From positions 64,001 through 128,000 of IMG/VR virus record IMGVR_UViG_2889049205_000001: a DNA stretch of 64,000 bases. One strand, 5' to 3'. A program made the translations under genes and the position numbers. Below are positions 29,663-46,455 of this stretch, piece by piece; the first letter of the stretch is position 1; every line of letters begins with the position of its first letter. The notes under the pieces are model-generated. The model did no database searches, had not been told where the DNA came from, and saw nothing but the letters and a program-made list of their open reading frames with translations. This stretch comes from a virus. Its lineage: Duplodnaviria; Caudoviricetes.

Positions 29663-29666
29663 ATGT

Positions 29667-29913: not shown

Positions 29914-30072
29914 CTAACCAGCGAATGCTTCTTGTCTTTCATATTCTTGAAGCTCTTCTTCTCGGATTGCCGGTACGATTGCTTCCGGACGATTCAACAG
30001 AAGCATGAGAATAAAGTAAACGAGCCAGTGGCTGACGCCTGTCTTAACCAGTCGCCTGGTAATTGCTTTCAT
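29914..30072 (-). CDS. Small membrane protein (52 aa)
   Basis: MKAITRRLVKTGVSHWLVYFILMLLL..; purine-rich RBS. Confidence 0.45.
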   Translation of the reverse strand: MKAITRRLVKTGVSHWLVYFILMLLLNRPEAIVPAIREEELQEYERQEAFAG

Positions 30073-30757
30073 AGGAACCACCCCCTTCCTCAAACTCGCA
30101 CATCATTTCCCGTTCGAAGCGATCATGAGGCATCTCTCGCTGCACCTGTGCCATTTCAGCCATCGTCAGCACCTCAATACTTGTAATTCGTCGTGCCATC
30201 TTTCCCTGCTCCCTGATGCGCCTGTAGAAGCTCTTGAACGCTGTCGGATGCGGCCCATTAATTGTGCCGACCATAATGACGTTGGCGATCATAAGCAGAT
30301 GGTCAAACTCTCTCCGGTCTTCCAGGAATTCTAAAACAGCCGGCATGTTCTCGGGATCCTCGAAAATAACCTCCTTGCTGTGGAACAGGTCATATCCCCT
30401 ATACTGCTGGTAGCTATAATTAGATACGATGTAGATGGTTTTTCCGTTGACGTATACCTCTTTGTATCCATTGCGCTGCGTGAGGACTTCGTACTCGTGG
30501 CCGAGCTCCCTGGCGATCTCAGTGAACCTATTCATTCGATGCGACGAGTCGAGGATCGAGGTTACGAGCACCGTATCCCGCTTATTCAGAATGGCTCTCT
30601 TGAGAATTGCTGTCGTCTTTCCGGTCGCCCTGCCAGCTATGATGCATTTGTTCTCTGCGTCCGCATTGATGAAGTCATCCCAGACTCTATATGCGTTGTC
30701 GCTTCGATACAGCCGATCTGCCGGATGCAGCTCCAAATACTGGTGTACGAGCTCCAT
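30044..30757 (-). CDS. Terminase-like ATPase domain without nuclease, with MELxxxY N-terminus
   Basis: Walker A GRATGKTT, Walker B-like VIFED, MVGT.NG..FKSFY, FEREMMCEF; RBS GGAGGTG before MELVHQY. Confidence 0.65.
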   Translation of the reverse strand: MELVHQYLELHPADRLYRSDNAYRVWDDFINADAENKCIIAGRATGKTTAILKRAILNKRDTVLVTSILDSSHRMNRFTEIARELGHEYEVLTQRNGYKEVYVNGKTIYIVSNYSYQQYRGYDLFHSKEVIFEDPENMPAVLEFLEDRREFDHLLMIANVIMVGTINGPHPTAFKSFYRRIREQGKMARRITSIEVLTMAEMAQVQREMPHDRFEREMMCEFEEGGGSYESNYQATG

Positions 30758-31127
30758 GAGCCACCTCCAGTCTCTCGAAGCGGGGCAGTGTCTCTCCGTT
30801 GACCTCAACTGACTCGTTCCACATGTCGAGCGGCCGAACCCAGATATCGCCCTCGTCGTTGACGTAGATCACCAGATCTTCGCCCTTCAGCTTCCGCATG
30901 GCCGGCAAGCTGCCGATGATATGCTGCGGCGTGATCCAGAAGTGGTCTTCACCCTCTTTCCACACCGCCAGCTTCTCATTCTTACCTTCGCTGTACTTGC
31001 CGATGCCGATCTGCCTGCAGCCTTTCATGAGCTCCTTGTCGCCGCCCTCCATATACGAGCCGACGCCGATCACCTTGTAGATTCCACCCTTGTAATGCTT
31101 GTAGTTTTCATTGGCTGTTGGTTTCAT
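30687..31127 (-). CDS. DUF1653-like protein
   Basis: YKHYKGGIYKVIG..LVIY...WVRP..M....PRF signature. Confidence 0.75.
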   Translation of the reverse strand: MKPTANENYKHYKGGIYKVIGVGSYMEGGDKELMKGCRQIGIGKYSEGKNEKLAVWKEGEDHFWITPQHIIGSLPAMRKLKGEDLVIYVNDEGDIWVRPLDMWNESVEVNGETLPRFERLEVAHGARTPVFGAASGRSAVSKRQRI

Positions 31128-31221
31128 GCCTTGTAGCCTCCCAGATTCTTAATAGAGCCGAAGGCTCTTCGATTTTTTATGAATAGCTAATTATTGCTCT
31201 TGTTTTCTCGAGATTCTTTGC

Positions 31222-31356
31222 TCACCATACGACCCAATGGATTAGCCGTGAAATTCCGCATCCTGCGACGACTGCACCAATTGTGATAATGAGAGCCCAT
31301 GCAATTCCAAGACAGACGCCGAGCCCTCTTTCATCCGCTTCTTTTCTGCTCATCAT
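31222..31356 (-). CDS. Small membrane protein (44 aa)
   Basis: ATGA-coupled to the upstream gene; hydrophobic LGVCLGIAWALIITIGAVVAG. Confidence 0.5.
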   Translation of the reverse strand: MMSRKEADERGLGVCLGIAWALIITIGAVVAGCGISRLIHWVVW

Positions 31357-31793
31357 ATCGATAACCTCCCCGACATCGTAATGGTGTTGCCATCCCATTC
31401 AGGGACCTTCTCTCGCCTCATCACACGCCAGTCACCGGCCATCAGATCTTTCATCTGGGGTTGCCATAGGTGGCACTCCCCGCAGCCGTCAGACACAGCG
31501 TAGATACCGTCCTTTCGCATCTCCAGATAGATCCCGTCCATCCAGCTCAGCCGGATCACCTTATAGCCAGACGGCAACAGGCGCATGACAACGCTGAAAT
31601 CGAACCGATCCATATACTCCAGTTCGGTGTCGGGGCCGGCGGCGATCAAAACCTTCTCGCCTTTGTAACGAGAGTGCCAGAAGCCCGCCAGGGCTTGGGC
31701 GTCCTCGTAGCTCTCGCTCTTGGCGTGGTACACGCCATCATGTACGTGAGCTATGCCGTTTATCTTCCACAGATACGACTCCGCAAGCTCCAT
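31353..31793 (-). CDS. DUF2829/Tad2-like domain protein with MELxxxY N-terminus
   Basis: FDFS.V.RLL..G.KV.R.SW...W.P...DLMA.DW pattern. Confidence 0.65.
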   Translation of the reverse strand: MELAESYLWKINGIAHVHDGVYHAKSESYEDAQALAGFWHSRYKGEKVLIAAGPDTELEYMDRFDFSVVMRLLPSGYKVIRLSWMDGIYLEMRKDGIYAVSDGCGECHLWQPQMKDLMAGDWRVMRREKVPEWDGNTITMSGRLSI

Positions 31794-32067
31794 CCGGATC
31801 TACCTGCCTTTCTATAACGTCGATCAGCCGATTGATGATCTTCAGATCCGGCTCCCTTGTTGCTTGCGTCATTTTAGGCACGAACAAACCGTGGTCCTCC
31901 ATGACCTTCGCAAGATCGTGGAAGTGTTCTGATGGAACGATGATCGTTACATGTCTGCGGTCGATCATCGTTCCCTCTTCCCTCTCATGCGGCTCTATGT
32001 ATATCAATTCCCTTGCAAAATTGTCGTATTGCCATCCGCCTCTGAACCAATGAGCCATGCCATTCAT
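31738..32067 (-). CDS. Hypothetical protein
   Basis: RBS GGAGG; colinear with neighbours. Confidence 0.5.
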   Translation of the reverse strand: MNGMAHWFRGGWQYDNFARELIYIEPHEREEGTMIDRRHVTIIVPSEHFHDLAKVMEDHGLFVPKMTQATREPDLKIINRLIDVIERQVDPDGACGVVSVEDKRHSSRT

Positions 32068-32090
32068 TCCTCCATTTCTTAATAGACCGG

Positions 32091-32357
32091 TTAATTAATT
32101 TTACGACCAATGATCATGCCGCCATGGTTCTCGATCGCATCTTTGCGGATCCGTTCCCGCTGCTCGTACAGCCATGTCAGCCACTCTTCCCGCTCCTTGA
32201 TCTTGCCTCTGCATTTGAAGCAGCATCCGAAGGTGATTCCTGGGAACTTGATCGATTTGGTCCTGTTGCTGATGAATCCGCACTCCGAATTCAGGCACTC
32301 ATAGCGTTTCGGCTCTTTCGGCTCTTTCGTCACATTGGTCGCTTTCGCCCTGCTCAT
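32091..32357 (-). CDS. Zn-ribbon protein
   Basis: CLNSEC..CFKC. Confidence 0.55.
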   Translation of the reverse strand: MSRAKATNVTKEPKEPKRYECLNSECGFISNRTKSIKFPGITFGCCFKCRGKIKEREEWLTWLYEQRERIRKDAIENHGGMIIGRKIN

Positions 32358-32541
32358 GTTCCTCTCCCCCTAACTCTCTTTGTCCCTTGATGAATTGCAG
32401 CAGATTCCGAGCCAGCTTGAATTGTCCACGATAGCTGTCCGTGTCATCCTTGTACATCTTGCCGGCGGCAATCTCCTTTTCTTCTTTTATTTTTTCAATC
32501 AATGCTGCCAGCAGTTCTGAATCGTTCATCCTTAACGCCAC
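32299..32541 (-). CDS. Hypothetical protein
   Basis: Colinear ORF. Confidence 0.45.
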   Translation of the reverse strand: MALRMNDSELLAALIEKIKEEKEIAAGKMYKDDTDSYRGQFKLARNLLQFIKGQRELGGEEHEQGESDQCDERAERAETL

Positions 32542-32777
32542 CTAACTCTGTTGAAGTCTCCTCTTGGCCGCAGCACCTGTTCTGGATCAACGGTGATAGC
32601 CTCTTGGCCTTCGATGTGATCAGGTAATCCCAGACTTACATCCCCTGTAAGCAGGACCTCAATGGTGCCTCTGAAATGATTCACTCGGATGTCCTCGATC
32701 GTGATCCCATCTTGAAGGCCAATCAGCTCCACCATCAACTCTTTCGTGACATGCAATTTTCCCTGCCCCATGCTCAT
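32532..32777 (-). CDS. Hypothetical protein
   Basis: RBS GGAGAGGAG. Confidence 0.5.
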   Translation of the reverse strand: MSMGQGKLHVTKELMVELIGLQDGITIEDIRVNHFRGTIEVLLTGDVSLGLPDHIEGQEAITVDPEQVLRPRGDFNRVRWR

Positions 32778-32792
32778 CTCTCCTCTCCACGC

Positions 32793-33062
32793 CTACAGCA
32801 TGTCATTCCAGTCATCATTCGTTGAAATACCTCGGGCCTCATACGATTTCATTTTCTTGTCGAATTTGGCGAGCGCCTTTGGACTCATTTCAAAGAAGTC
32901 ATCGTCCACTGCATTCGGATTTGCTTCACCGAAGAAGAGGCTTCCCCTTTTCTTTGGCGCCGCAGCTGCTGCTGACTTGCTGCCAGTCGCTTTCCCGAAC
33001 ACAGAGGATACATGCGAGAACAGTGGATTGGTCCCTAGAGCTCTGTTGGCCCGCAGGAACAT
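32793..33062 (-). CDS. Hypothetical protein
   Basis: RBS GAGG; preceded by TGTATAAT and an operator at 33081-33096. Confidence 0.5.
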   Translation of the reverse strand: MFLRANRALGTNPLFSHVSSVFGKATGSKSAAAAAPKKRGSLFFGEANPNAVDDDFFEMSPKALAKFDKKMKSYEARGISTNDDWNDML

Positions 33063-33145
33063 GTCACTAACCTCACTTTCATGTAACGCATTACACAACT
33101 ATTATACACCGTCTGTCTTGTTATTGGAATAAAAAAAGACACCGA

Positions 33146-33568
33146 TCACTCGGTGCCTTGAGTTTCCTTTCGAAAGCTGTAGATTTTCGCCGGTCTTCGC
33201 TTTGCCTCGCTCATCTTCTTCTCGAAGCTGCTGTTCATATGAGTGCCATAAAACTTGTTATGGAACAGTAAGAATGCTCTGCTCATCGACTCCGCCATGC
33301 TCGGCGATGCCGTTTCCACGCTCCATGATTCATTCTCATCATCCTGAATGGAACAATGTTCCTGAATCGCTATTGGAGCTCCGCCAAATCTTGTGCAGCT
33401 GACGCTACACCCTATATCCGATATGTACTCTCTTAGCTGCAGTGCTGCTAGGTCATCTGTTGACCACGATTTATGCGGGATCTCATTGTCCACTTGATGA
33501 ACGATACTTGTGATCAGCTCATCCATCAAAGAGCCTGGATCCATTTGAAGGATCTTTTGCGGGTTCAC
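33146..33568 (-). CDS. Phage ABA-sandwich (BC1872-like) protein
   Basis: MDELI...WSTD..AALQL...A.SM..AFL pattern. Confidence 0.5.
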   Translation of the reverse strand: MNPQKILQMDPGSLMDELITSIVHQVDNEIPHKSWSTDDLAALQLREYISDIGCSVSCTRFGGAPIAIQEHCSIQDDENESWSVETASPSMAESMSRAFLLFHNKFYGTHMNSSFEKKMSEAKRRPAKIYSFRKETQGTE

Positions 33569-33721
33569 CGGCCCACCACCTCTCTCTTATTCTATCTACC
33601 ATTTTACCCCATTTCCTATAGCGGCATAATTATTCTCAAAAAAAATTTTGAGCCACAACAAACCTATGGAAAGTTTCCTATAGGGGGCCATTTTTCTAAA
33701 AAAAATTGCTCGAGGTAGCTG

Positions 33722-33774
33722 GTATATAGGGGTGGCACCACTTAAACGTTCTGTGCCCCACCCCCTATATATAC
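33722..33774. repeat. Imperfect inverted repeat at the strand switch
   Basis: GTATATAGGGGTGGCAC ... GTGCCCCACCCCCTATATATAC. Confidence 0.6.
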
Positions 33775-33814
33775 AACGCCGGCACATGGACTGTGCCATA
33801 TGGAGGAAACCCCA

Positions 33815-34105
33815 ATGAAGATCAGAGTCGTGAATGTTAAGAGATTTGCAATTGCTTGCGTTACTGTAGGTGTCGTACTTGGTTCTGCTATTACCTTATT
33901 GGTAAGCAATCACCATGATACGCATTACACCTATAAGAATGTAGTCGCAAGCAAGGGCGATACGCTATGGACATTGGTACGGCAATACAACCCTGATTAT
34001 AGCGGGGATGTGCGTGTACTGGTACACATGGCAAGCAAGCACAATGGTAGCTCATCTATTGATGCAGCTACTGTGGTGAGTATCCCTGTGCAGGAGGGCA
34101 ACTAA
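33815..34105 (+). CDS. YneA-like TM-LysM protein (cell division inhibitor-like)
   Basis: N-terminal TM helix, then KGDTLWTLV..YNP....N.....IPV LysM; 96 aa. Confidence 0.7.
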   Translation: MKIRVVNVKRFAIACVTVGVVLGSAITLLVSNHHDTHYTYKNVVASKGDTLWTLVRQYNPDYSGDVRVLVHMASKHNGSSSIDAATVVSIPVQEGN

Positions 34106-34106
34106 T

Positions 34107-34259
34107 ATGCCACATGCAAAGGACCTCATTCATAAGGGGCTCTACATGGGTCCTGTAAGCGGCGGTATCGGCTACGTGTATGAATACCATGGCCAACTGT
34201 ACGTGTACACTGCTGGCCGCATCATACCTCATGAGCAGCATCTGAGGGAGAAGGCATGA
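34107..34259 (+). CDS. Hypothetical protein (50 aa)
   Basis: RBS AGGAGG; MPHAKDLIHKGLYMG.. Confidence 0.5.
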   Translation: MPHAKDLIHKGLYMGPVSGGIGYVYEYHGQLYVYTAGRIIPHEQHLREKA

Positions 34260-34262
34260 CAA

Positions 34263-34324
34263 GGACGAAACGCACCCTGTATCAAGGGGGTGCGTCCATG
34301 GGTGCTACCCATGCTGATGAGTCC
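34263..34324 (+). ncRNA. Hammerhead ribozyme, type II
   Basis: GGAC-GAAA-CGCACCC..GGGTGCG-TC-CATGGGT..ACCCATG-CTGATGA-GTCC; all core nucleotides and three stems intact; cleavage after C34296. Confidence 0.9.
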
Positions 34325-34388
34325 AGTAAATGCTCACCCATGTAAGACGTGACCTATATGGCACGCTATGGGATAGAAAGGATCTACC

Positions 34389-34955
34389 ATGAACGCAGCA
34401 TCTATCCGTAACAGTTTCTCCACCATGATGGAGGACATGGCCCGTGAGGCAGGCAAGGTATTTCGCCGCTTTGCATCCACTACCCCTGTACAGGCAGCCC
34501 CTGTGCATGTAGCATCCTCCCCTGCCAAGAAGGCCCCTACTGTATCCCATGCCCCTGTAGCCAAGGCTAGCTGGGTTGTGGAGCGTAGCGAGGCTATGCC
34601 TGTAGCTGCAGCCCGCTATGCTGCACAGGTGGCCAAGGTACCCCCTACTGCAGAGAAGGTCTCTGTTAAGGGTGCTGTCGTCGTAGGCGTGGTTGCTGCA
34701 ACGGCAGCTGCCATTGCAACCCCTACCCTGGGGACGGCCTTATTGGCAGGTGCTTCTGCGGCTGCTGTTGCAGAGCTGATCCGCAATCGCAAGAAACAAG
34801 GCGCCAAGAAACAAGCCCTTGTTGCAGGACTCACTGCTTTGGCCGCACCGCTTGGCGTGGTCTATGGCGGCATGGCCGTGTTGTCCTTATCTGGACTTGC
34901 ATGGCAATTGGGCTTGACCGGCTGGAACGCAGCCACGCTCGCAATCCTGCTTTAA
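34389..34955 (+). CDS. Ala-rich membrane protein
   Basis: RBS GAAAGG; several hydrophobic segments in the C-terminal half. Confidence 0.6.
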   Translation: MNAASIRNSFSTMMEDMAREAGKVFRRFASTTPVQAAPVHVASSPAKKAPTVSHAPVAKASWVVERSEAMPVAAARYAAQVAKVPPTAEKVSVKGAVVVGVVAATAAAIATPTLGTALLAGASAAAVAELIRNRKKQGAKKQALVAGLTALAAPLGVVYGGMAVLSLSGLAWQLGLTGWNAATLAILL

Positions 34956-35079
34956 TTGGCAGGGTTCGATATGGGACTCGCTGATTACAGGGTGAAATGA
35001 TATATCCCTGCTATTGGCATCCCCTCCCCCTTGTGCCGGTCGATCCGCATGGGGGCAGTACACAGAATCGGCCTAGCTG

Positions 35080-35109
35080 GAACACGGATCTTTAAGCCGT
35101 GTTCTTTTT
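35080..35109 (+). terminator. Rho-independent terminator
   Basis: GAACACGG/CCGTGTTC stem followed by TTTTT. Confidence 0.65.
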
Positions 35110-35224
35110 GTGTTCCGGCGAACTGCAAGAAGAACGGGCCGTGTCCTGTGGGTGTACGTGACCCAGGGCATTGGCAACCACGTATCCCTCTCCTGTTTAA
35201 GGGCTGATCACCCCAGGAGTTGTA

Positions 35225-35274
35225 GTCCGTGCATGGCGAGCTTTAACGAGACAGTGACTGTCATCCCTCTCCGA
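35225..35274 (+). repeat. Left arm of the inverted repeat flanking the RNA polymerase gene
   Basis: Complementary to 39046-39105. Confidence 0.85.
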
Positions 35275-35361
35275 CGCAATACCGCAATACCCGCTTCACC
35301 TGTCGCCCGTCCCTTTGTCCGCAAGTCCAAAACCAATTTACTCTGAGGAGAGATATCTATC

Positions 35362-39045: not shown

Positions 39046-39105
39046 TCGGATAGGAGATGGTGATGCAACAGTCACTGTCTCTTTAGAGTTCGTCATGCAC
39101 AGGAC
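39046..39105 (+). repeat. Right arm of the inverted repeat, starting 1 nt after the polymerase stop
   Basis: 33-nt core pairs with 35229-35261 (29 Watson-Crick, 3 G-U, 1 mismatch). Confidence 0.85.
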
Positions 39106-39545: not shown

Positions 39546-40043
39546 TTGATTGTTCATCGTAGATCCAAGGAGCATTATCCGGTTGAGTTTCAGCCGCTTA
39601 CCTCAAGGGACGTGCAGCGCATGGTTAAAGACGGCGGCCCGAACAGTTGGGAGCCGGCATTCGACTGGTCGCTGTATTTCCGTTACAACCGCACTGAAGT
39701 GTATAAGATGGTCATTAAGGGTAATGACTACATACAGGGCTGCATTGCCTTCGAGATCAAGGAAGATCATGTCTATGTACACTTGATCGAATCGGCTCCC
39801 CATAATTTTAAGGGTAAAGAGTTCGAGATGATCGGCGAGCACATGCTTGCTTTTGCGTGTAAGCGAAGCGAGCAGCTCGGATTCGAAGGGGCCGTCGCAT
39901 TACAGTCGAAGACGGGGCCAAGATTTGTACCTCTTATGCGTTATTATATGGGCCCTAAGATTAGAGCCGAGCATCTCGGAAATGGGTACATGATTATAGA
40001 TGGCCCTTCAGCTGACCGGCTAATTATGCTATACTCTAATTAA
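39546..40043 (+). CDS. GNAT-family acetyltransferase (toxin-like)
   Basis: VYVHLIESAP.N....IGEHML.FAC..S...GFEG.V.L.SK...YY pattern. Confidence 0.7.
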   Translation: MIVHRRSKEHYPVEFQPLTSRDVQRMVKDGGPNSWEPAFDWSLYFRYNRTEVYKMVIKGNDYIQGCIAFEIKEDHVYVHLIESAPHNFKGKEFEMIGEHMLAFACKRSEQLGFEGAVALQSKTGPRFVPLMRYYMGPKIRAEHLGNGYMIIDGPSADRLIMLYSN

Positions 40044-40046
40044 GGA

Positions 40047-40238
40047 GTGATGATGCTTATGAGAACAAGACCATATGCTAGGCTGTATGCGCCAATGAGA
40101 TCTCTTGATGACGCTGCTCGTCTTGCCGGCGGGTACGTAAAGCAATCTCTTCCTGTTGAGAACCAACAACGTGATCAGATGATTTCAGAGGCTATTGCCA
40201 ATCGTAAGAATAAACGTGTTGCGAAGGTCCGCTCTTAG
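40047..40238 (+). CDS. Small basic protein paired with the GNAT gene
   Basis: RBS AAGGAG; followed by a terminator at about 40224-40257. Confidence 0.55.
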   Translation: MMMLMRTRPYARLYAPMRSLDDAARLAGGYVKQSLPVENQQRDQMISEAIANRKNKRVAKVRS

Positions 40239-40499
40239 GAGTGGGCCTTTTTCTTTTGGTTCGTGATCTGTATAAAGCTTAATGCTACATATGGGGGCCG
40301 AGTGAATACGAGGCCCATATCAGATACATAGAAGTGATGTGCCTATACGATTGCTTTTCATACTGATGACTATGTGTATTGGTATGATGATCCTTTCAAT
40401 GAGGATCGTCTATAGTTCTCTCTCTTCCCCCGCCCTCCTCGCTTGGTAATCCTTTCCCCTGATTATGGTATACTATCAACATAGAAAGGTTGTGATCCT

Positions 40500-40676
40500 A
40501 TGAATATTGCTGTGTGTGAGAAAGACGGCATTACCAGTGTCCCGTTGTCTGAGGTAATGTACGTCAGCACTGAGGAGAATGCCGGAACCAAGAGAGTCGT
40601 TGTCCAAACGGCGAGCGGGAATTATACGCTGCCTGCAACACTAGCTGAGTGCGGTCAGCTCTTCGAGAAAAAGTGA
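40500..40676 (+). CDS. Truncated LytTR-like protein (58 aa, monocistronic)
   Basis: VPLSEVMYVS....RVVVQT..G.Y.L..TL.E; TGGTATACT promoter upstream; terminator at about 40675-40702. Confidence 0.55.
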   Translation: MNIAVCEKDGITSVPLSEVMYVSTEENAGTKRVVVQTASGNYTLPATLAECGQLFEKK

Positions 40677-40829
40677 GAGAGCCCTCGTGGTTCTCTTTTT
40701 TCGTGTTGTGGTGCTTCATTTATGTATGCTCTCTATATGCTTCGTGCGTATAGGGAGCTTTTTTTATTCTCCCCCTTTCCCCAGGTTTGTGTAATGTGTT
40801 ACATTAGTCGATGAACTACAAGAAAGGAT

Positions 40830-41126
40830 GTGTTACATATGCACCCGCTCCAGGGTCATTATGCTCGTAGCTTGGATAAGCCATATGCTGCTGTTAAGGC
40901 TATCCGTAAGGGTAAGCGTCTTATCGTTGTCCCCGGCAGCTTCTTTATCAGTCGTGCAGATACTATGTTTATCTCTCTTCCCGACGACTACCAGGTGGTT
41001 TCTGAGGAAGGCAAGGTCCTTCCGGCCACCGGCTCGTTCATGATATCTGCAGAGACGTTCGATCCCTATCATGTGCTCGTAGACTATCAGCAGCAAGGGA
41101 GTGAAGCTAATGTCTCGGACGAATAG
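40830..41126 (+). CDS. Hypothetical protein
   Basis: RBS GAAAGGA; operator at 40789-40804 upstream. Confidence 0.5.
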   Translation: MLHMHPLQGHYARSLDKPYAAVKAIRKGKRLIVVPGSFFISRADTMFISLPDDYQVVSEEGKVLPATGSFMISAETFDPYHVLVDYQQQGSEANVSDE

Positions 41127-41944
41127 TGATCTGCTTGATATGTCTCCTGACGATATCATGGCTGCGTATGATGCTGCCGTGAAGCGTGGGGATCAGCAAG
41201 AAGTCGCTCGGCTGCGTGAGTTTATTATCGATCGGTTGTATCAGTCCAATTTCATATGATGGAGGTAGTGCTATGCTTATTGCAGATGTGGCTCACATTA
41301 CATATGTCTGTAGCTGTGTTGCATGCGGTAATGGTATTCCGCCTGAAGAGCGTGGATACTTTCGGAATCCCGCTTCCGGTGAGGAGTATTGCATTCCATG
41401 TGCTGAGCAAGAGATACATGCTATTGAGAGGGCGGGATAAGTATGCCAGATGATCTACGTAAGGCGCAGGCTGCTGATGTGTTCAGAGCACTTTGTGATC
41501 TATATCAGCAGCTGTATCCTGTATACGAGGGCATTACCCGCTACGCCTGGAGGCAGCATCATATGATGCATGGTTCTATGGCAATCAGCCATGAGGAATA
41601 TGGTAGTATCGTCTACTCTCTCGTCATGTCCGGGTTTGTGGAGTATCAAGATAGGAATGCGTTGTATCGTCCCGGAGCCGCCGGCCTTGCCAGACTGCAG
41701 CAGATATCGAATGGAGGGGCATAAATTGAGGATCCCAGTTAAAGTCACGAGCAAGGTTACAGGCAGGGTTGTCGAAGCATCCTATCCTGCTCGTAAGCTG
41801 CTTGATATGTACGAAGAGGAATTGGTGCAAGACATTACTAGATGCGATTGCCAGCCTGTTGGTGAAACCAATGTCGTGGATTGTTCTTGCTATGAGGAAT
41901 GGGAAGATTACGAGCTGCTAATTGGCGACGAGATCGCTGCATAG
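41110..41944 (+). other. Four small hypothetical CDS (41110..41259, 41273..41440 Zn finger, 41443..41724, 41726..41944)
   Basis: Tightly packed ORFs, each with an RBS. Confidence 0.5.
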
Positions 41945-41959
41945 ATCGGAGGGGTTACA

Positions 41960-42226
41960 ATGGAGCTCACTGCTGCCTATATGGATTGTCATATCATCGC
42001 CGATGCTTATCGTATGAATCCTGGGCTTATCTATGGATTCGTCTATCAGTTTCTGGATGATCCCCCGGTCTCCTATGTAGCACGTTGCATTCGGCATGAG
42101 ACTCATTCCTATCAGCATCGTGTGTTATTCAGTGTCCAGTCGAGAAGCGTTGAGCCCCATCGTGAGCGTGTTTCTCTGTATGCTGATGCCATACATAGTA
42201 TTAAGCTGCATTGGAGGATTCCTTGA
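41960..42226 (+). CDS. MEL-tag small beta-barrel-like protein
   Basis: MELTAAY; paralog of 43488..43829. Confidence 0.65.
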   Translation: MELTAAYMDCHIIADAYRMNPGLIYGFVYQFLDDPPVSYVARCIRHETHSYQHRVLFSVQSRSVEPHRERVSLYADAIHSIKLHWRIP

Positions 42227-42489
42227 TGGGTGCGAAGCCATTAAGACGATGCTCTTTCACCAAGGATAGTGTTAAGCATTACGCTCGCTTGCAAAGGACC
42301 GGTGATCGTTTCCCCCAGCCCGCCAGGATTGTTGTCGATAAGGAATACTTTGAGCATGTCGGCGGCGTCTATGGCATGGAGACTGTAGCCATATACGATA
42401 AAATCTATGAGGATTGGGCGTATGCTCATGCTGTGTATGATGAGATACTGCGTCGTGCTGATCCGAATAGTCTGAAGGAGTTGAAATGA
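42226..42489 (+). CDS. Hypothetical protein
   Basis: RBS GGAGG; overlaps the previous stop. Confidence 0.55.
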   Translation: MGAKPLRRCSFTKDSVKHYARLQRTGDRFPQPARIVVDKEYFEHVGGVYGMETVAIYDKIYEDWAYAHAVYDEILRRADPNSLKELK

Positions 42490-42493
42490 TTGA

Positions 42494-42727
42494 ATGGAGC
42501 TTGCTACTGCCTACCTGGAGCATCGTTATGATCTCGTTACTGACTGCTATATAGCTTCGGGTATGGTGATTGAATTCATCTACATTCAGGTGTTCGAAGG
42601 CGAGGCTGTCCGTGGCGTATATGAGGGCATGAATGACGATGGTTATGTCATGGTCTATGATGGGGAAGGTACTGAATTCTTTGAGCTCGCAAAGATCGTT
42701 TTTGCAGAGAATGTGGGGTGGCCTTAA
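42494..42727 (+). CDS. MEL-tag small beta-barrel-like protein
   Basis: MELATAY. Confidence 0.65.
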   Translation: MELATAYLEHRYDLVTDCYIASGMVIEFIYIQVFEGEAVRGVYEGMNDDGYVMVYDGEGTEFFELAKIVFAENVGWP

Positions 42728-42948
42728 TGGAGCTTGCTAGCATCTATATCCTATCGGTTCGCATCTTGGGCCGTGTTTGGCGTGCTGGTCAGAAGATCAT
42801 ATACGTGCATAAGCATATGCCCTATGGTACGGACTATGAGCAAGGAACCATCATAGCATTTAGTGCTTCAGGGTTCTACGTAAAGAATAAGTGGGACTGC
42901 AATGTCCATATTCCTTACGATATCATTGAGCACATAGTGGAGGAATGA
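42727..42948 (+). CDS. MEL-tag small beta-barrel-like protein
   Basis: MELASIY; TAATG coupling. Confidence 0.65.
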   Translation: MELASIYILSVRILGRVWRAGQKIIYVHKHMPYGTDYEQGTIIAFSASGFYVKNKWDCNVHIPYDIIEHIVEE

Positions 42949-43199
42949 TCTTGGAGCTTGTTGCTGCGTATGCATCTTGTGAGGTGAAGGGAGTAAAGCT
43001 TTTTGCTGGCGACTTCATTTCATTCACCTTTCTGGGAGCTGGAGAGTTACGTGGATTCTTCCGTCGTGTTGATATGAGCCACGAGGTATTCAAGTATCTT
43101 GTCGTCGATGATGACAATAACGGCATTCCTCATCATTACCAGCTTCCCTATATATACGGGATTGAGGTTCATCCTGTCCCGTCCCGCTACCGGAGGTGA
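42945..43199 (+). CDS. MEL-tag small beta-barrel-like protein
   Basis: (MI)LELVAAY; TTG at 42951. Confidence 0.65.
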   Translation: MILELVAAYASCEVKGVKLFAGDFISFTFLGAGELRGFFRRVDMSHEVFKYLVVDDDNNGIPHHYQLPYIYGIEVHPVPSRYRR

Positions 43200-43206
43200 T
43201 TAGCTT

Positions 43207-43488
43207 TTGGAGCTCGTTAATGAATACTGCTGTGTGCATCAATCGTTTATGCTTCATGATATCGAGATTCGTGTAGGTGACTATGTAGGTTTCACCTATA
43301 CTGCTCCTACGATGTCTTATGAGATATCGGGTAATGTTCATGGTTTCGATATTTCCGCCGGCCTGATGTTTATGATCATTGATGATAAGTATGCAATGTA
43401 CGGACGTTCTGCCAAGAAGCATGCCGTGTATGGATATCCTTTGGATCAGGTGAAGGATCTCTACTTTCCTGCTGGAGATGTTGATTAA
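43207..43488 (+). CDS. MEL-tag small beta-barrel-like protein
   Basis: TTG start MELVNEY; RBS GGAGGTG. Confidence 0.65.
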   Translation: MELVNEYCCVHQSFMLHDIEIRVGDYVGFTYTAPTMSYEISGNVHGFDISAGLMFMIIDDKYAMYGRSAKKHAVYGYPLDQVKDLYFPAGDVD

Positions 43489-43829
43489 TGGAGCTTGTTG
43501 CTGGCTATATGAATAGCTTCGTTATCCCCGATCCATTGGATATGTTGCCTGGCTCTGTCTATAGGTTTGAATATACTTTACAGGATGGCACTCCTGTTTC
43601 CTTTATAGCTGAATGCATGAAGCATTGGCGCTCTGGTGGTCAGGACCGAATACAGATCCTTATCTTCTATCGCAGCGGCGGACATGGTGCCAACATCTTA
43701 TCCCTATACAGTGAAAGGATACGTAATATCCGTCTGCATTGGAATGAGTGCAAGCATAACTGGGCTCTTGATGAGAGAGAGGATAAATGCTTTTGCGAGG
43801 TCTGCGGTATATGGGAGGATGAATTATAG
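43488..43829 (+). CDS. MEL-tag beta-barrel-like protein with C-terminal Cys/His motif
   Basis: MELVAGY; CKH..CEVC. Confidence 0.65.
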   Translation: MELVAGYMNSFVIPDPLDMLPGSVYRFEYTLQDGTPVSFIAECMKHWRSGGQDRIQILIFYRSGGHGANILSLYSERIRNIRLHWNECKHNWALDEREDKCFCEVCGIWEDEL

Positions 43830-43981
43830 TGGAGCTTGTCTCTGCCTATATAGAGTGTAAGCATGAATATGCGCTTATCGGAACTTTTGGTCGTTCTGGT
43901 TATATGATTTATGAGTATTACTGTCCTTTGTGCAATCATACGAAAGAGGAGGTGTACTATGGACCCGACTCAGTTAACTGA
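43829..43981 (+). CDS. MEL-tag Zn-finger microprotein (50 aa, not in the ORF track)
   Basis: GTG overlapping TAG; MELVSAYIECKHEY...CPLC. Confidence 0.6.
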   Translation: MELVSAYIECKHEYALIGTFGRSGYMIYEYYCPLCNHTKEEVYYGPDSVN

Positions 43982-44102
43982 ACAAATCGCTGTTGATGAT
44001 CTTCCTTTCTCCGATCCCGCTTCCCTGCTGTATAAGGAGGATCTCGAGGTAATCGATGACATGTGCGTGTGCGAGAACTATCCGTTCTGCGGCTGCATGT
44101 AG
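43959..44102 (+). CDS. Small acidic Cys-rich protein
   Basis: RBS AGGAGGTG. Confidence 0.5.
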   Translation: MDPTQLTEQIAVDDLPFSDPASLLYKEDLEVIDDMCVCENYPFCGCM

Positions 44103-44111
44103 GATTGCCCC

Positions 44112-44294
44112 ATGGAGATGATCCGTATGTATCTGGACCTTAGTGGTCTTGAGCTTGTCCCCTGTCCCTCGTGCAGCAGCACTGGTAAGATTAAGCGTGT
44201 TTCGTTCATTGATGGGCGTTACGTGTATTCGTATCCGCCCTGTACATTATGCAATGGTGGCGGCATTGTCACCTTGCACAGATATAGGATGTGA
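44112..44294 (+). CDS. MEL-tag-like DnaJ-type Zn-finger protein
   Basis: MEMIRMY; CPSCSSTG..CTLCNGGG. Confidence 0.6.
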   Translation: MEMIRMYLDLSGLELVPCPSCSSTGKIKRVSFIDGRYVYSYPPCTLCNGGGIVTLHRYRM

Positions 44295-44587
44295 CTGTAT
44301 TGGAGCTAATTGCGGAATACCTTTCTTGCACCCAGCTCTCCCGCTTTGTATTCGCCCGGTTCGGTCATAGTTATGGCTATGATCTCGGCATTCGCTTGAA
44401 GGTAGAACATACCGATTGCGAACTCGATGAAGATGGCGATTACGGCTATACCGAGTTTCATTATGGCGACCTGCGCCAGGTGACGCACCATTGGATCGTA
44501 CTGCGGGAGAGGTCTGCTGAAGGTTTTATTGACCATGTGATCAAGCGTTCAGAAATCATTGATGTTGTGTCCCAGGAGAGTGCTTAA
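44291..44587 (+). CDS. MEL-tag protein
   Basis: LELIAEY (TTG at 44300). Confidence 0.6.
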   Translation: MTVLELIAEYLSCTQLSRFVFARFGHSYGYDLGIRLKVEHTDCELDEDGDYGYTEFHYGDLRQVTHHWIVLRERSAEGFIDHVIKRSEIIDVVSQESA

Positions 44588-44832
44588 TGGAACTGATTCG
44601 TGCTTATCTGATCGACAAGTTTGTTGTTGGCCAAATTTATTGGGTCGAGTGCGCCGATCATAACTATTCTGGCACCTATATTGGGAATCGGAGTGTGTTC
44701 GGTGATATGGCTCACGAGTTTCAAGATACTGTGCAATATAAGCGTGACAGCAAGGAGCGGATGCTACAGTCGAATGTATTGCTCTTCCCGGAGGAAATAA
44801 ATCTGATTCGCCGGCGATCCTTCGCTCGATGA
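44587..44832 (+). CDS. MEL-tag small beta-barrel-like protein
   Basis: MELIRAY; TAATG coupling. Confidence 0.65.
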   Translation: MELIRAYLIDKFVVGQIYWVECADHNYSGTYIGNRSVFGDMAHEFQDTVQYKRDSKERMLQSNVLLFPEEINLIRRRSFAR

Positions 44833-44889
44833 GGCTGTCGCCTCCATTCTATTTGATGCTATACTCTACAAAGAAACGAGGTATTATCA

Positions 44890-45153
44890 TTGTCTATCAC
44901 TAATGAGCTGCCGCATCCTATTCGCCGTGGAAAGAAGCGAGTATCTGTTACAAATCCGAATGGCCGCATGTTATATCATGAGCTGCTGTGCGTGGAGTCT
45001 GTTGCATTTGAGCCTGCTGGTCGGTCCGGCCCTTCCGAGGATGGTGGCCGTACTTATCCGGTAATTGAGACGATCGGGTATGTATCCCCAGAAGCAGAGT
45101 GGTATCTGCTTGCTTGTGGCTATCGTGTTGAACCTTACGTTGGGGAGGATTGA
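44890..45153 (+). CDS. Hypothetical protein
   Basis: RBS GAGG; preceded by a hairpin element at 44831. Confidence 0.5.
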   Translation: MSITNELPHPIRRGKKRVSVTNPNGRMLYHELLCVESVAFEPAGRSGPSEDGGRTYPVIETIGYVSPEAEWYLLACGYRVEPYVGED

Positions 45154-45554
45154 TCATGTCCAAACTTCCACGCCGCTGGTATGATCCTCTGGCTCATAAG
45201 TTATCTGATCTATATGGCGCCCAGGTATTTGATCAACCAGGCCTTGGTAATGGCATCTTTCTGGTGAATGATAGTCTCGATCTTTATATCCGTGTTCTGC
45301 CAGAATACGGTATGACGATCGCTCGCATTGATGTCGGCGAGGGGCATACTCGCAATGGAATTGGCTCTGCTATCGTGGAATGGTGCAAGGAATTTTGCCT
45401 GCAGCATCGTATTCCCGAGCTAAAGATGGAATGTGTGCTAACGGAAGAATGTGCAGCGTTCTGTCGTAAACAGGGCTTTTCGTTGGCTCGTCCAAGTGAC
45501 GATCTGTGTTTCGATTGGGTGCTTCCGATCCCGATCCCGGAGGTGACTGTATAG
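45150..45554 (+). CDS. GNAT-family acetyltransferase
   Basis: IARIDV....RNGIGSAI....FCRKQGF. Confidence 0.75.
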   Translation: MIMSKLPRRWYDPLAHKLSDLYGAQVFDQPGLGNGIFLVNDSLDLYIRVLPEYGMTIARIDVGEGHTRNGIGSAIVEWCKEFCLQHRIPELKMECVLTEECAAFCRKQGFSLARPSDDLCFDWVLPIPIPEVTV

Positions 45555-45844
45555 TGGAGCTTATTGCACATTACATTGAGCCTCGCCTGACTCCTGGCGA
45601 GCTCTATTTTATTCCGGGCATTAATCTTTCATACCGTGGAGTATATGTGGGGCCAGTTGATCAATGTGGTCAAACATTTTATGAATTCGCTCCTGCTTTA
45701 CCATTTGATCCGGAGACTGATTATATGGTAGGCCGGCAATCTATGGTGCAATTCCTGCCCTGTGAATTAGCCCTTGCCTCCCTTGTTCCTCGGCCAAACT
45801 CGTGGGAGACCTATATTAATCGCATTTATGGCGTATATGGTTAA
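45554..45844 (+). CDS. MEL-tag small beta-barrel-like protein
   Basis: GTG overlapping TAG; MELIAHY. Confidence 0.65.
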   Translation: MELIAHYIEPRLTPGELYFIPGINLSYRGVYVGPVDQCGQTFYEFAPALPFDPETDYMVGRQSMVQFLPCELALASLVPRPNSWETYINRIYGVYG

Positions 45845-45853
45845 GGAGGCATT

Positions 45854-46129
45854 ATGGAGCTCATTTCTGAATATCTCGATCTTCTCCCCCGCCCCCTGAC
45901 GATTGCCGAGACTTGTCCAGGCGTGTTTTACCGGCTACTTATGAAGAGCACGCACGCCAATGTAAATGAGCCTGGCTGGATAACCGCCCGTGTACGCCAT
46001 GCAGATGGAGAATTTACGACGTTGTATTTCGATGCCATTAAGAACCCTGATGATTCGATCACCGAGGGCAATTTCTTTGCCACGACACCCCAGATCCTTG
46101 GGATCTATCCGTGGGAGCATACATCATGA
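45854..46129 (+). CDS. MEL-tag protein
   Basis: MELISEY; RBS AAGGAGG. Confidence 0.65.
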   Translation: MELISEYLDLLPRPLTIAETCPGVFYRLLMKSTHANVNEPGWITARVRHADGEFTTLYFDAIKNPDDSITEGNFFATTPQILGIYPWEHTS

Positions 46130-46383
46130 ATCTTGTGCTGCATTACATAACTGTCCCGCTTCTGGATAAAGAGTACCGGCACGGTGATGAGGTTGATGTT
46201 TGGTTCACTGAGGCTAATAGAGAATGGTCTGCTCGTGGCATGATCGTCTCCTCCCATTCTTCCCCTCCCACCCTGGTAATTCGAAACCGTGTTCTCGTTG
46301 GTGAGCCGGAGGACGATTATTACCTTTACCGCATTATTCCGATCGCCATGATCACTCGTGTGGAGTTAATACCCTTCGGGTAG
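46126..46383 (+). CDS. MEL-tag variant, Sm/SH3-like protein
   Basis: MNLVLHY; GDEVDV..RG.I...IIPIAMITRVE. Confidence 0.6.
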   Translation: MNLVLHYITVPLLDKEYRHGDEVDVWFTEANREWSARGMIVSSHSSPPTLVIRNRVLVGEPEDDYYLYRIIPIAMITRVELIPFG

Positions 46384-46455
46384 TCGCTTACGTGATCATA
46401 CGTGATATGCCTATCGGCATGCTTCCTTGTGATGAATACACGGGAGGCTGATGCT

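What the first reader, a model, noticed from the sequence alone, without database searches (positions are those of the whole stretch)
30044..46383. Fifteen divergent genes share an N-terminal M-E-L-h-x-x-Y-h tag: candidate phage protein-targeting signal system
Seen: starts at 41960 MELTAAYM, 42494 MELATAYL, 42727 MELASIYI, 42951 LELVAAYA, 43207 MELVNEYC, 43488 MELVAGYM, 43829 MELVSAYI, 44112 MEMIRMYL, 44300 LELIAEYL, 44587 MELIRAYL, 45554 MELIAHYI, 45854 MELISEYL and 46126 MNLVLHYI. Two more lie on the opposite strand over 10 kb away: 30757 MELVHQYL and 31793 MELAESYL. Tyr7 is invariant. Start codons vary (ATG/GTG/TTG), Leu uses all four CTN codons and Tyr uses both TAT and TAC, which favours selection on the peptide. 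The tag precedes unrelated bodies: small beta-barrels, two kinds of Zn finger, a terminase-like ATPase and a Tad2-like domain. Established analogy: T4 internal proteins share a short N-terminal capsid-targeting sequence. Inference: a portable amphipathic-helix address for virion loading, docking on a hub protein, or timed proteolysis. Caveat: Glu2 is nearly always GAG (NTGGAGCT), so a nucleotide role such as coupling or recombinational gene shuffling is not excluded.
Basis: partly seen in the sequence, partly recalled or inferred. Interest (0 to 1): 0.92.

Follow-up and report, generated by a model that had tools for sequence, protein, structure and literature searches.

The report
Shared N-terminal tag on phage proteins
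About one gene in ten of this roughly 212-kb jumbo phage and its relatives in Bacillus-type bacteria begins with the same eight amino acids (M-E-L-hydrophobic-x-x-Y-hydrophobic) ahead of otherwise different proteins; this looks like an undescribed address or docking label, and its reader is still unknown.

Summary
The whole 229-kb contig is a 0305phi8-36-like jumbo phage with a 17-kb terminal repeat. It carries about 30 such genes, and no plausible host gene start has the motif. The motif is almost exclusive to N-termini: 23 of 24 occurrences directly follow a start codon.

Selection acts on the peptide. Related phages keep M-E-L-h-x-x-Y with other codons (GAA instead of GAG, all six Leu codons), and 85 of 92 cross-genome ortholog pairs keep it at 25-70% body identity.

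Eleven related genomes or loci carry the tag; one further relative (Oceanobacillus) keeps only 2-3. One closer relative (a MAG) and four distant cultured relatives lack it.

Position 4 differs by genome: all Leu through five different codons in one, Met in two sister phages, Val or Ile elsewhere (permutation p = 0.0002). Two AlphaFold models with different bodies show the tag as a short helix of low confidence.

Best reading: a portable linear motif read in trans by a co-evolving partner, probably within the replication and nucleotide-metabolism module. The partner was not identified. Capsid loading, proteolysis and a cis or translational role are not excluded.

The scan reported this tag before, in another window of this genome and in another genome.

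The parts
30044..30757 (-). Tagged gene, 237 aa, MELVHQYL; P-loop ATPase weakly like the terminase ATPase domain
   Evidence: Terminase_6N E=1.3e-3, below cut-off; PHROG 2 E=8e-5. Orthologs in V197 and the Alicyclobacillus phage also carry the tag.
31353..31793 (-). Tagged gene, 146 aa, MELAESYL; about 60-aa N-terminal extension followed by a Tad2-like domain
   Evidence: PF11195 E=1e-6, residues 65-124. Orthologs begin M-T-ELAEAY (V197) and M-V-ELISQY (V206). Tad2-like genes in L094 and L095 have no tag.
41960..42226 (+). Tagged array gene, 88 aa, MELTAAYM; paralog of 43488
   Evidence: 36% identity to 43488 with the tag removed, E=3e-15
42494..42727 (+). Tagged array gene, 77 aa, MELATAYL; small beta-barrel family
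42727..42948 (+). Tagged array gene, 73 aa, MELASIYI; start overlaps the previous stop (TAATG)
42951..43199 (+). Tagged array gene, 82 aa, TTG start, (M)ELVAAYA; small beta-barrel family
   Evidence: a close homolog, P0138, also carries the tag
43207..43488 (+). Tagged array gene, 93 aa, TTG start, (M)ELVNEYC; modelled member of the family
   Evidence: AlphaFold2 model m6efc196ae06d: helix 3-9 with pLDDT below 50, seven-strand barrel at pLDDT 70-80. Nearest folds are SH3/Sm/WYL-like.
43488..43829 (+). Tagged array gene, 113 aa, MELVAGYM; paralog of 41960 with a C-terminal Cys-rich tail
43829..43981 (+). Tagged array gene, 50 aa, GTG start, (M)ELVSAYI; CxxC mini-protein
44112..44294 (+). Tagged array gene, 60 aa, MEMIRMYL; two CxxC pairs (CPSC, CTLC)
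44300..44587 (+). Tagged array gene, 95 aa, TTG start, (M)ELIAEYL
44587..44832 (+). Tagged array gene, 81 aa, MELIRAYL; followed by a short hairpin at 44831
45150..45554 (+). Untagged GNAT acetyltransferase gene inside the array
   Evidence: Acetyltransf_1 E=2.8e-4. No BLAST match in five related phages, so it is not a candidate common reader.
45554..45844 (+). Tagged array gene, 96 aa, GTG start, (M)ELIAHYI
45854..46129 (+). Tagged array gene, 91 aa, MELISEYL; strong AGGAGG site upstream
46126..46383 (+). Tagged array gene, 85 aa, MNLVLHYI (Asn2 variant); small beta-barrel family
   Evidence: N and D at position 2 recur in orthologs elsewhere.

Best explanation
The tag is a portable N-terminal short linear motif: M-[E>D,N]-[L>M]-[V/I/L/M/A]-x-x-Y-[L/I/M]. 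It forms two turns of amphipathic helix, with residues 3, 4, 7 and 8 on one face. I read it as recognised in trans by one shared partner.

Shown: selection acts on the peptide. It is tied to the protein's free start. It sits on several unrelated folds. It is kept in orthologs across a clade of roughly 200-kb jumbo phages of Bacillales hosts. The preferred residue at position 4 changes genome by genome.

Inferred: the tag does not belong to the fold of its carriers. It docks them onto a common reader that co-evolves with it.

Genomic context puts the tagged genes in the replication and nucleotide-metabolism operons. [quoted passage not shown] From this I infer, weakly, that the tag gathers accessory proteins at the phage replication machinery. 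The phage's own fast-evolving beta-clamp is one candidate reader, at about 0.15.

The 13-gene array in the window is a lineage-specific expansion of one tagged SH3/Sm-like mini-protein family.

The confidence of 0.5 applies to 'docking motif read in trans'. The replication-hub refinement is worth about 0.25.
For: Peptide, not DNA. Glu2 is GAG in 21 of 25 tags here but GAA in 12 of 15 in the Alicyclobacillus phage. Leu3 uses all six codons across genomes, and Tyr7 uses both codons.

Tied to the N-terminus: 23 of 24 occurrences directly follow a start codon. No plausible host gene start has the motif.

Conserved across a clade: strict counts are 25, 15, 11 and about 10 in four whole genomes. Eight further loci of 18.5-21 kb around the S8 gene hold 2-10 tags each. 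85 of 92 cross-genome ortholog pairs keep the tag, including pairs at 24-30% body identity.

Separable from the body. In L093 the MazG-like ortholog starts directly at the domain, whereas five orthologs carry the tag. Pfam domains begin 23-64 residues after the tag.

Not packed. In two AlphaFold2 models with different bodies, residues 1-8 or 1-9 form a helix with pLDDT below 50. The bodies reach 70-80 and about 90. Yet M1, L3, A6 and Y7 are invariant in the second family.

Genome-specific tuning. Position 4 is Leu in 5 of 5 tags in L092, through five different codons. It is Met in 7 of 9 (L088) and 4 of 8 (L094), Val in 5 of 7 (L091) and Ile in 7 of 8 (V206). Permutation gives p = 0.0002 at positions 4 and 10. 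Positions 5, 9 and 11 are not significant. L088, L091, L092 and L093 have similar GC (42-45%), so base composition does not explain it.

Context. Tagged genes sit beside primase, SNF2 helicase, clamp, DnaE, RNR, thymidylate kinase and PD-(D/E)XK nucleases. Where the region downstream of DnaE was sampled, one or two tagged genes usually follow it.

The swap. The L093 MazG-like protein ends in EQWEVDIA, the DnaE tail of the same genome. The DNA identity is confined to those eight codons and shows two synonymous differences. The E. coli counterpart of this tail, EQVELEFD, is a clamp- and tau-binding motif (PMC11139829).
Against: Genome-specific preferences are confounded by relatedness. L088 and L094 are sister lineages, so the Met state may reflect one ancestral episode. 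Tags within a genome may also share recent ancestry, as the opposite Glu codon biases (GAG here, GAA in the Alicyclobacillus phage) suggest.

Low pLDDT on a terminal helix is common and came from shallow alignments (11 and 6 sequences).

The tag does not match the beta-clamp consensus QL[SD]LF. The phage polymerase uses an ordinary C-terminal tail. Classical clamp clients here do not carry the tag. The Alicyclobacillus phage has tags although its DnaE lacks the tail. The MazG swap is a single case.

A few in-frame internal copies exist, for example one preceded by GTA. So a free N-terminus may not be strictly required, or these are recent gene fusions.
Confidence: 0.5

Rival explanations
1. 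Recognition site for a protease (processing signal or degron). The tag is cut or bound by the phage's intracellular subtilisin (S8, no signal peptide, no prodomain), or marks early proteins for host AAA+ proteases, giving timed removal.
For: In the four tag-rich complete genomes examined for synteny, an S8 subtilisin gene lies just downstream of a tagged cluster; four of the five with a determinable start codon have a tagged gene directly upstream of the S8 gene. The enzyme is a true subtilisin: E=4e-61 to subtilisin Carlsberg, a roughly 22-aa N-terminal extension and no prodomain. By established subtilisin specificity, P1 prefers Tyr, Phe or Leu and P4 a hydrophobic residue. [V/I/L/M]4-x-x-Y7 fits P4-P1, as does the LIPY/F motif of the intracellular subtilisin pro-peptide (PMC6220982, abstract only).
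Against: S8 homologs are common in large Firmicute phages that lack the tag: Moorella MTATph1 at 52% identity, Tsamsa-like phages and SP-15 (with for Moorella). The tagless MAG relative also has one. The Oceanobacillus phage keeps three tags without S8. The S4-pocket residues (BPN' 104, 107, 126) are F, I, L in the Val-, Leu- and Met-type genomes alike, so they do not co-vary with tag position 4. The host has no ClpS, so a Leu or Ile N-terminus exposed by cleavage would not feed the classical N-degron route. No conserved residue follows Tyr7-h8.
Confidence: 0.12
2. Capsid-targeting sequence like that of the phage T4 internal proteins. The helix binds the scaffold or prohead interior, so tagged proteins are packed and injected with the DNA.
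For: This is the closest formal analogy. In T-even phages a diverse set of defence-countering internal proteins share only a conserved N-terminal capsid-targeting sequence (PMC3012670). The cargo here includes plausible counter-defence proteins (Tad2-like, MazG-like) and a hypervariable array.
Against: None of the sheath, portal, protease or terminase genes carries the tag. Tagged genes lie in operons with replication and nucleotide-metabolism genes, on the opposite arm from the late structural block. No conserved cleavage motif follows the tag; T4 needs L/I-x-E (my own knowledge). About 30 different cargo species would be unprecedented. No virion proteome exists for this clade, and the distant cultured relatives lack the tag.
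Confidence: 0.1
3. A cis-acting start module with no trans reader. The first eight codons are a favourable starter for early elongation or nascent-chain passage, or a generic N-terminal helix cap. It spread with gene duplication and capture.
For: The motif is strictly N-terminal. Many genes are translationally coupled with overlapping stop and start. Within-genome codon habits (GAG here, GAA in the Alicyclobacillus phage) point to spread inside a genome by duplication. The array family always carries the tag, and no untagged homolog was found among 1.84 billion representatives.
Against: The highly expressed structural genes do not use it. Tyr7 is invariant in all 120 tags compiled from 12 genomes and loci; on this contig the Phe-for-Tyr control finds no gene start. 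That specificity is unexpected for a ramp or a generic cap. Parallel genome-specific choice at position 4 through different codons is hard to explain without a shared reader. The MazG-like domain exists without the tag.
Confidence: 0.15
4. Mere residue of common ancestry: all tagged genes descend from one ancestral small gene, and the N-terminus is simply the slowest-evolving part.
For: Most of the 13 array genes, and a 4-gene array in the Alicyclobacillus phage, align as one family: tag, then about 12 residues, then h-x-V-G-D-x-V-x-h-x-Y and a beta-barrel. 41960 and 43488 are clear paralogs.
Against: Other carriers have unrelated, independently recognisable domains that occur elsewhere without the tag: Tad2-like, PRA-PH/MazG and a P-loop ATPase. 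A confident alpha/beta model differs from the barrel. With the tag removed, BLAST finds only one clear pair among 31 proteins.
Confidence: 0.08
5. A nucleic-acid signal at the gene start, such as a translational operator, an antisense target or a recombination cassette for gene shuffling.
For: Glu2 is GAG far more often than genome usage predicts (21 of 25 against 50%, p=5e-4). Tags sit at rearrangement junctions. In one locus two or three tags lie in frame within one ORF (this phage and V197), as if genes had been fused at their tags.
Against: The bias reverses in the Alicyclobacillus phage (GAA 12 of 15) and is absent in V197 and V206. Leu3, residue 4 and Tyr7 use many codons. No conserved sequence lies upstream or downstream of the eight codons. 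Recombination at tags may be a consequence of their similarity rather than their function.
Confidence: 0.05

Closest known systems
Capsid-targeting sequence (CTS) of phage T4 internal proteins IPI, IPII, IPIII and Alt
   Same: A short (about 10-aa) amphipathic N-terminal peptide with aromatic residues. It is shared by otherwise diverse, fast-evolving accessory and counter-defence proteins encoded in hypervariable loci, and it is portable (PMC3012670).
   Different: No link to the head module, no cleavage motif after the tag, and about 30 carriers co-encoded with replication genes. No sequence similarity: T4 has MKTYQEFIAE (my own knowledge). Packaging was not tested.
Clamp-binding motifs (bacterial QL[SD]LF; PIP box Qxx[LIVM]xx[FY][FY])
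   Same: Short linear motifs at disordered N- or C-termini of many unrelated DNA-metabolism proteins, all read by one hub (PMC11139829). Hda carries its motif at the N-terminus. The tag's h4-x-x-Y7-h8 spacing matches positions 4, 7 and 8 of the PIP box (my own knowledge). The phage encodes its own divergent DnaN-type clamp. One ortholog swaps the tag for the DnaE C-terminal tail.
   Different: The sequence does not fit the beta-clamp consensus. The phage clamp is beta-type, not PCNA-type. The polymerase uses a normal C-terminal tail, and typical clamp clients lack the tag. Binding was not tested.
N-terminal pro-peptide (LIPY/F motif) of intracellular subtilisin proteases, and subtilisin P4-P1 substrate preference
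   Same: A hydrophobic-x-x-Tyr motif near a free N-terminus, and an intracellular-type subtilisin encoded next to tagged clusters.
   Different: The pro-peptide acts in cis on its own enzyme. The S8 pocket residues do not co-vary with the tag, and the enzyme is widespread in tagless phages.
Cargo-loading peptides of encapsulins
   Same: A short terminal peptide shared by unrelated cargo proteins and read by one HK97-fold shell protein (my own knowledge).
   Different: Those peptides are usually C-terminal and have a different sequence. There is no evidence of encapsidation here.

Membership tests
T4-type capsid-targeting sequence | Carriers are virion (head-internal) proteins | not testable with these tools
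   No virion proteome exists for this clade. The cultured relatives in the phage collection share only about 36% portal identity and lack the tag.
T4-type capsid-targeting sequence | The tag is followed by a prohead-protease cleavage site (L/I-x-E in T4) | tested here: not met
   Positions 9-12 are variable. Glu is at position 9 in only 7 of 25 tags, and no fixed site follows.
T4-type capsid-targeting sequence | A short N-terminal amphipathic peptide shared by otherwise diverse proteins | tested here: met
Beta-clamp binding motif | Matches QL[SD]LF or QLxLxL | tested here: not met
   The tag is M-E-L-h-x-x-Y-h. The phage DnaE tail (Q/E-W-E-V-D-I-A) is the motif that resembles the E. coli Pol III alpha tail EQVELEFD.
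Beta-clamp binding motif | Binds the hydrophobic cleft between clamp domains II and III | not testable with these tools
Beta-clamp binding motif | Sits in a disordered terminus of DNA-metabolism proteins and is encoded alongside a clamp | tested here: inconclusive
   Tagged genes are embedded in replication operons and the phage has its own DnaN. Most carriers have no known function.
Subtilisin substrate or intracellular-subtilisin pro-peptide-like motif | A hydrophobic P4 and an aromatic P1 in an accessible segment | tested here: met
   [V/I/L/M/A]4-x-x-Y7 lies in a helix of low confidence. This fit is generic and not specific.
   BPN' 104, 107 and 126 are F (Y or I in two), I and L in genomes of Val, Leu and Met type alike.
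Subtilisin substrate or intracellular-subtilisin pro-peptide-like motif | The tag and the S8 enzyme co-occur | tested here: inconclusive
   All four tag-rich complete genomes have S8 next to a tagged cluster; the eight further loci were retrieved through their S8 gene, so they cannot test co-occurrence. The tagless MAG, Moorella and many other phages also have S8, and the Oceanobacillus phage has tags without it.
Single paralogous protein family | The bodies are homologous beyond the tag | tested here: not met
   True for most array members. Not true for the Tad2-like, PRA-PH, P-loop and alpha/beta-domain carriers.

The most novel reading that the evidence does not exclude
A clade of jumbo phages runs its own protein-addressing system. 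An eight-residue N-terminal helix is carried by about 10% of the proteome, including counter-defence and nucleotide-sanitising enzymes and a fast-expanding mini-protein array. It is read by one phage-encoded receptor that co-evolves with it, with the preferred residue at position 4 switching between Val/Ile, Leu and Met. The tag concentrates these proteins at the replication machinery, and a polymerase-tail swap can stand in for it.
Probability: 0.25. Interest if true: 0.85.

Novelty: new variant of a known kind. Interest (0 to 1): 0.7.

Why it matters
Shared terminal peptides that sort or dock many unrelated proteins are known from only a few phage systems, such as the T4 capsid-targeting sequence, clamp-binding tails and the T7 acidic tails. 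Here about one phage gene in ten carries a tag. It is conserved across phages of at least three host genera and appears tuned genome by genome.

If a reader exists, finding it would assign a common cellular destination to dozens of genes with no known relatives in one step. It would also give a portable eight-residue handle for directing proteins in infected Bacillales cells. And it would show how accessory genes are plugged into a phage's machinery.

The clade has no cultured member in the phage collection that was searched. The bacterial strain carrying this contig may therefore be the practical entry point.

Tried and rejected
1. Pfam and PHROGs on ten array proteins gave no family. BLASTN of the array against the phage collection gave no match.

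2. An array-family profile searched against 1.84 billion representatives found only the clade's own small proteins plus spurious hits to giant repeat proteins. No untagged homolog appeared.

3. I looked for a different enriched N-terminal motif in the tag-poor relatives (MAG, Oceanobacillus). None was found.

4. It is kept only as a minor rival.

5. N-degron route after cleavage: the host has no ClpS.

6. GNAT inside the array as an N-terminal acetylase. M-E, M-D and M-N starts are the substrates of eukaryotic NatB (my own knowledge). The gene has no homolog in the related phages, so it was dropped.

7. Phyletic profiling for genes present in tag-rich but not tag-poor phages gave about 30 candidates. 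Pfam named none as a peptide-binding or modifying enzyme. Five genomes are too few for this test.

Loci from the look-up of encoding contigs could not be extended to whole records. So the clamps of the Leu- and Met-type phages could not be examined.

9. My first pattern scan had one N too many and is void.

10. Tagged proteins do not differ from untagged small proteins in pI or hydropathy.

11. The MDLIPSYI match at contig position 187036 is an internal, universally conserved DnaE motif and not a tag.

12. Literature searches found no description of this tag. The library is limited to open-access papers.

Full report
WHAT THE WINDOW IS. The window is bases 64001-128000 of a 228,841-bp contig with GC 0.50. 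It belongs to a genome whose chromosome is 7.05 Mb with GC 0.55. The contig encodes a tail sheath, portal, prohead protease and large terminase. Its nearest cultured relatives have only about 36% portal identity: Bacillus phages 0305phi8-36, WH1 and Edson, and Moorella phage MTATph1. The first 17.07 kb of the contig repeat at its end at 99.94% identity. The unique genome is therefore about 211.8 kb. It is a jumbo myophage assembled together with its host.

THE OBSERVATION. The codon statements also hold. On the whole contig, 25 genes start M-E-[L/M]-x3-Y, and about 30 do if D or N at position 2 and M-S-E-L variants are counted. The density is 10.9 per 100 kb, against 0.64 on the chromosome. 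Every chromosomal match to the fuller motif lies at least 40 codons inside a longer open frame. The host proteome therefore has no plausible N-terminus of this kind. Control motifs with Tyr shifted by one position, or with Phe, Trp or Lys substituted, give 0-2 hits.

The motif is tied to the start of the protein. Of 24 six-frame occurrences of E-[LM]-[VIATL]-x-x-Y-[LIMVFC] with at least 40 codons following, 23 directly follow ATG, GTG or TTG. In the tagless MAG relative the figure is 0 of 6.

PEPTIDE OR NUCLEOTIDE. I fetched five related 195-206-kb phage genomes. Strict tag counts are 25 here, 15 in the Alicyclobacillus shizuokensis contig, 11 in V197 (a 197-kb IMG/VR genome) and about 10 in V206 (a 206-kb one). 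The Oceanobacillus contig has 2-3, and a MAG contig has none that is convincing. Four distant cultured relatives show background counts only.

The GAG preference here (21 of 25; genome usage 50%) is reversed in the Alicyclobacillus phage (GAA 12 of 15). It is absent in V197 and V206. Leu3 uses all six codons and Tyr7 both. The peptide is therefore what is conserved. The opposite codon habits suggest that tags within one genome share recent ancestry. Orthologs keep the tag at 24-70% body identity. Across twelve genomes or loci, 85 of 92 ortholog pairs whose alignment reaches the N-terminus have it.

THE CARRIERS. Most of the 13 array genes align as one family with a 4-gene array in the Alicyclobacillus phage. 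The pattern is the tag, about 12 residues, then h-x-V-G-D-x-V-x-h-x-Y and further strands. An AlphaFold2 model gives a seven-strand small barrel at pLDDT 70-80. Its nearest folds are SH3/Sm/WYL/Hfq-like at Z of about 5-6, which shows only a common arrangement. A profile of this family found no member outside the clade, and no untagged member, among 1.84 billion representatives.

Other carriers are different proteins:
- a Tad2-like domain behind a 60-aa extension;
- a PRA-PH/MazG-like pyrophosphohydrolase whose domain starts at residue 24;
- a P-loop ATPase;
- zinc-ribbon mini-proteins;
- a conserved family with a confident alpha/beta model (pLDDT about 90) and no fold match.

So 'unrelated bodies' holds for the set but not within the array.

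IS THE TAG PART OF THE FOLD? In both models residues 1-8 or 1-9 form a short helix with pLDDT below 50, while the body is much better defined. In the second family, M1, L3, A6 and Y7 are nevertheless invariant. In locus L093 the MazG-like ortholog begins directly at the domain. Five orthologs carry the tag 8-12 residues ahead of the same conserved G-L-D/N-x-A-x-x-Q-V-K segment. The tag is thus a separable add-on. High conservation combined with poor packing is the usual mark of a linear motif bound by something else. The alignments were shallow, however.

GENOME-SPECIFIC TUNING. A search with the neighbouring S8 protease revealed many further 200-215-kb relatives. I fetched up to 10 kb on either side (18.5-21 kb in all) around the S8 gene from ten of them. 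Eight are syntenic and hold 2-10 tags each. Two loci from a Bacillus paranthracis and a Priestia megaterium element are not syntenic and have none.

Position 4 differs by genome:
- Leu in 5 of 5 tags in L092, encoded by CTT, CTG, TTG, CTA and CTC;
- Met in 7 of 9 (L088) and 4 of 8 (L094);
- Val in 5 of 7 (L091) and 4 of 6 (L093);
- Ile in 7 of 8 (V206);
- a Val/Ile/Ala mix here.

Permuting genome labels gives p = 0.0002 at positions 4 and 10. Positions 5, 9 and 11 give p = 0.4, 0.97 and 0.31. In the two Met-type genomes position 8 is often polar. L088, L091, L092 and L093 have similar GC, at 42-45%. The same amino acid reached through different codons argues against gene conversion. It argues for a selective optimum that differs between lineages, as expected if all tags in a genome face one reader.

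Caveats apply. L088 and L094 are sisters. Tags within a genome may be related by descent. The permutation does not correct for phylogeny.

WHERE THE TAGGED GENES LIE. None of the sheath, portal, protease or terminase genes carries the tag. The tagged genes lie in operons with these genes:
- primase, a DUF6094 methyltransferase, an SNF2 helicase and the phage's own DnaN-type clamp;
- thymidylate kinase, DnaE, a RemA-like protein, two PD-(D/E)XK nucleases, RusA and the S8 protease;
- dCMP deaminase, MazG and ribonucleotide reductase.

Where the region downstream of DnaE was sampled, one or two tagged genes usually follow it.

CANDIDATE READERS.
(a) S8 subtilisin. It is a true subtilisin without signal peptide or prodomain. 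It sits next to tagged clusters, and h4-x-x-Y7 fits the P4-P1 preference. However, it is common in tagless phages. It is present in the tagless MAG and absent from the Oceanobacillus phage, which keeps three tags. Its S4-pocket residues do not co-vary with position 4. The host also lacks ClpS.

(b) The phage clamp. It is much more divergent between relatives than DnaE (51, 37, 27, 27 and 20% identity). Clamps are classical hubs read through terminal linear motifs (PMC11139829). The phage DnaE ends in a tail, W-E-V-D-I-A, that resembles the E. coli Pol III alpha C-terminal motif EQVELEFD. In L093 the MazG-like protein that lacks the tag ends in EQWEVDIA, the DnaE tail of the same genome. The DNA match is confined to those eight codons and has two synonymous differences. 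This looks like a natural exchange of one address for another. It is the only pointer to the replication machinery, and it is a single case. The tag does not match the beta-clamp consensus. The Alicyclobacillus DnaE lacks the tail although that phage has tags.

(c) The GNAT in the array is not conserved in the relatives.

VERDICT.

My best reading, at confidence 0.5, is a docking motif read in trans by a co-evolving partner. A link to the replication machinery is a weaker refinement, at about 0.25. The rivals are:
- a cis or translational start module (0.15);
- a protease signal (0.12);
- capsid targeting (0.10);
- pure common ancestry (0.08);
- a nucleic-acid signal (0.05).

The closest known system in form is the T4 capsid-targeting sequence (PMC3012670). 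In logic the closest are clamp-binding motifs. I found no description of this tag in the searchable literature.

The scan has noted the same tag before. One note comes from another window of this genome (e1-5707138). Another comes from a different genome and was followed up with a similar conclusion (e1-5685914).

Noticed in passing
contig C3 1-17066 and 211771-228841 (outside the window; loci L078 and L086): The phage contig ends in a 17.07-kb direct repeat at 99.94% identity. This is either a long terminal repeat or an assembly overlap of a circular or concatemeric form. The unique length is about 211.8 kb.
   Followed up: partly
window 29350-29743 (-): A cluster of five tRNA genes (Pro-tgg twice, Asn, Trp, Met) lies between the terminase block and the first two tagged genes.
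   Followed up: no
window 27453-28664 (-): The C-terminal 108 residues of this 403-aa ORF (the part scanned) match MreB-like_C (archaeal actin homolog), E=8e-7. A phage-encoded actin-like protein might serve plasmid-like segregation of this element.
   Followed up: no
L085:4725-5627 (-) = contig 192725-193627: An intracellular-type subtilisin (S8) with no signal peptide or prodomain. Its roughly 22-aa N-terminal extension carries a conserved [LVF]-F-[TS]-x-D motif in the relatives. In this phage and the three tag-rich complete relatives it lies next to a tagged gene cluster. Homologs are common in large Firmicute phages.
   Followed up: partly
L093:6866-7282 (+) and L093:14560-17997 (+): In this relative the MazG-like protein lacks the MEL tag and ends in EQWEVDIA, the same tail as the DnaE of that genome (QQWEVDIA). 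DNA identity is limited to the eight codons, with two synonymous changes.
   Followed up: yes
L085:7852-8421 (-) and L085:8430-8630 (-); V197 123214-123700 (+): Tags also occur in frame inside ORFs at one rearranging locus. VELVSAYLE follows a GTA codon and a poly-Lys/Arg run. IELVAAYL lies near the end of a 66-aa gene. In V197 three tags lie in one 161-aa ORF. These could be recent gene fusions at tags, nested starts or unusual start codons.
   Followed up: partly
window 44831-44844, 46406-46421, 46854-46867 (+): Short GC hairpins followed by CATTC or CTTCC bound the two halves of the array. The terminator scan lists them. Earlier readers proposed them as hairpin promoters for a phage RNA polymerase.
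   Followed up: no
L094:14696-19335 and L095:14501-20752: In two relatives the phage DnaE gene is interrupted by LAGLIDADG (and in one case HNH) endonuclease ORFs. They are probably inteins or introns.
   Followed up: no
window 46908-47048 (+): A 46-aa ORF starts M-L-E-L-M-R-K-F. It is a possible degenerate tag, shifted by one residue and with Phe in place of Tyr.
   Followed up: no
contig 159006-160319 (L083:11006-12316): A phage-encoded DnaN-type sliding clamp of 437 aa. It is only 20-51% identical between relatives whose DnaE is 36-69% identical.
   Followed up: partly
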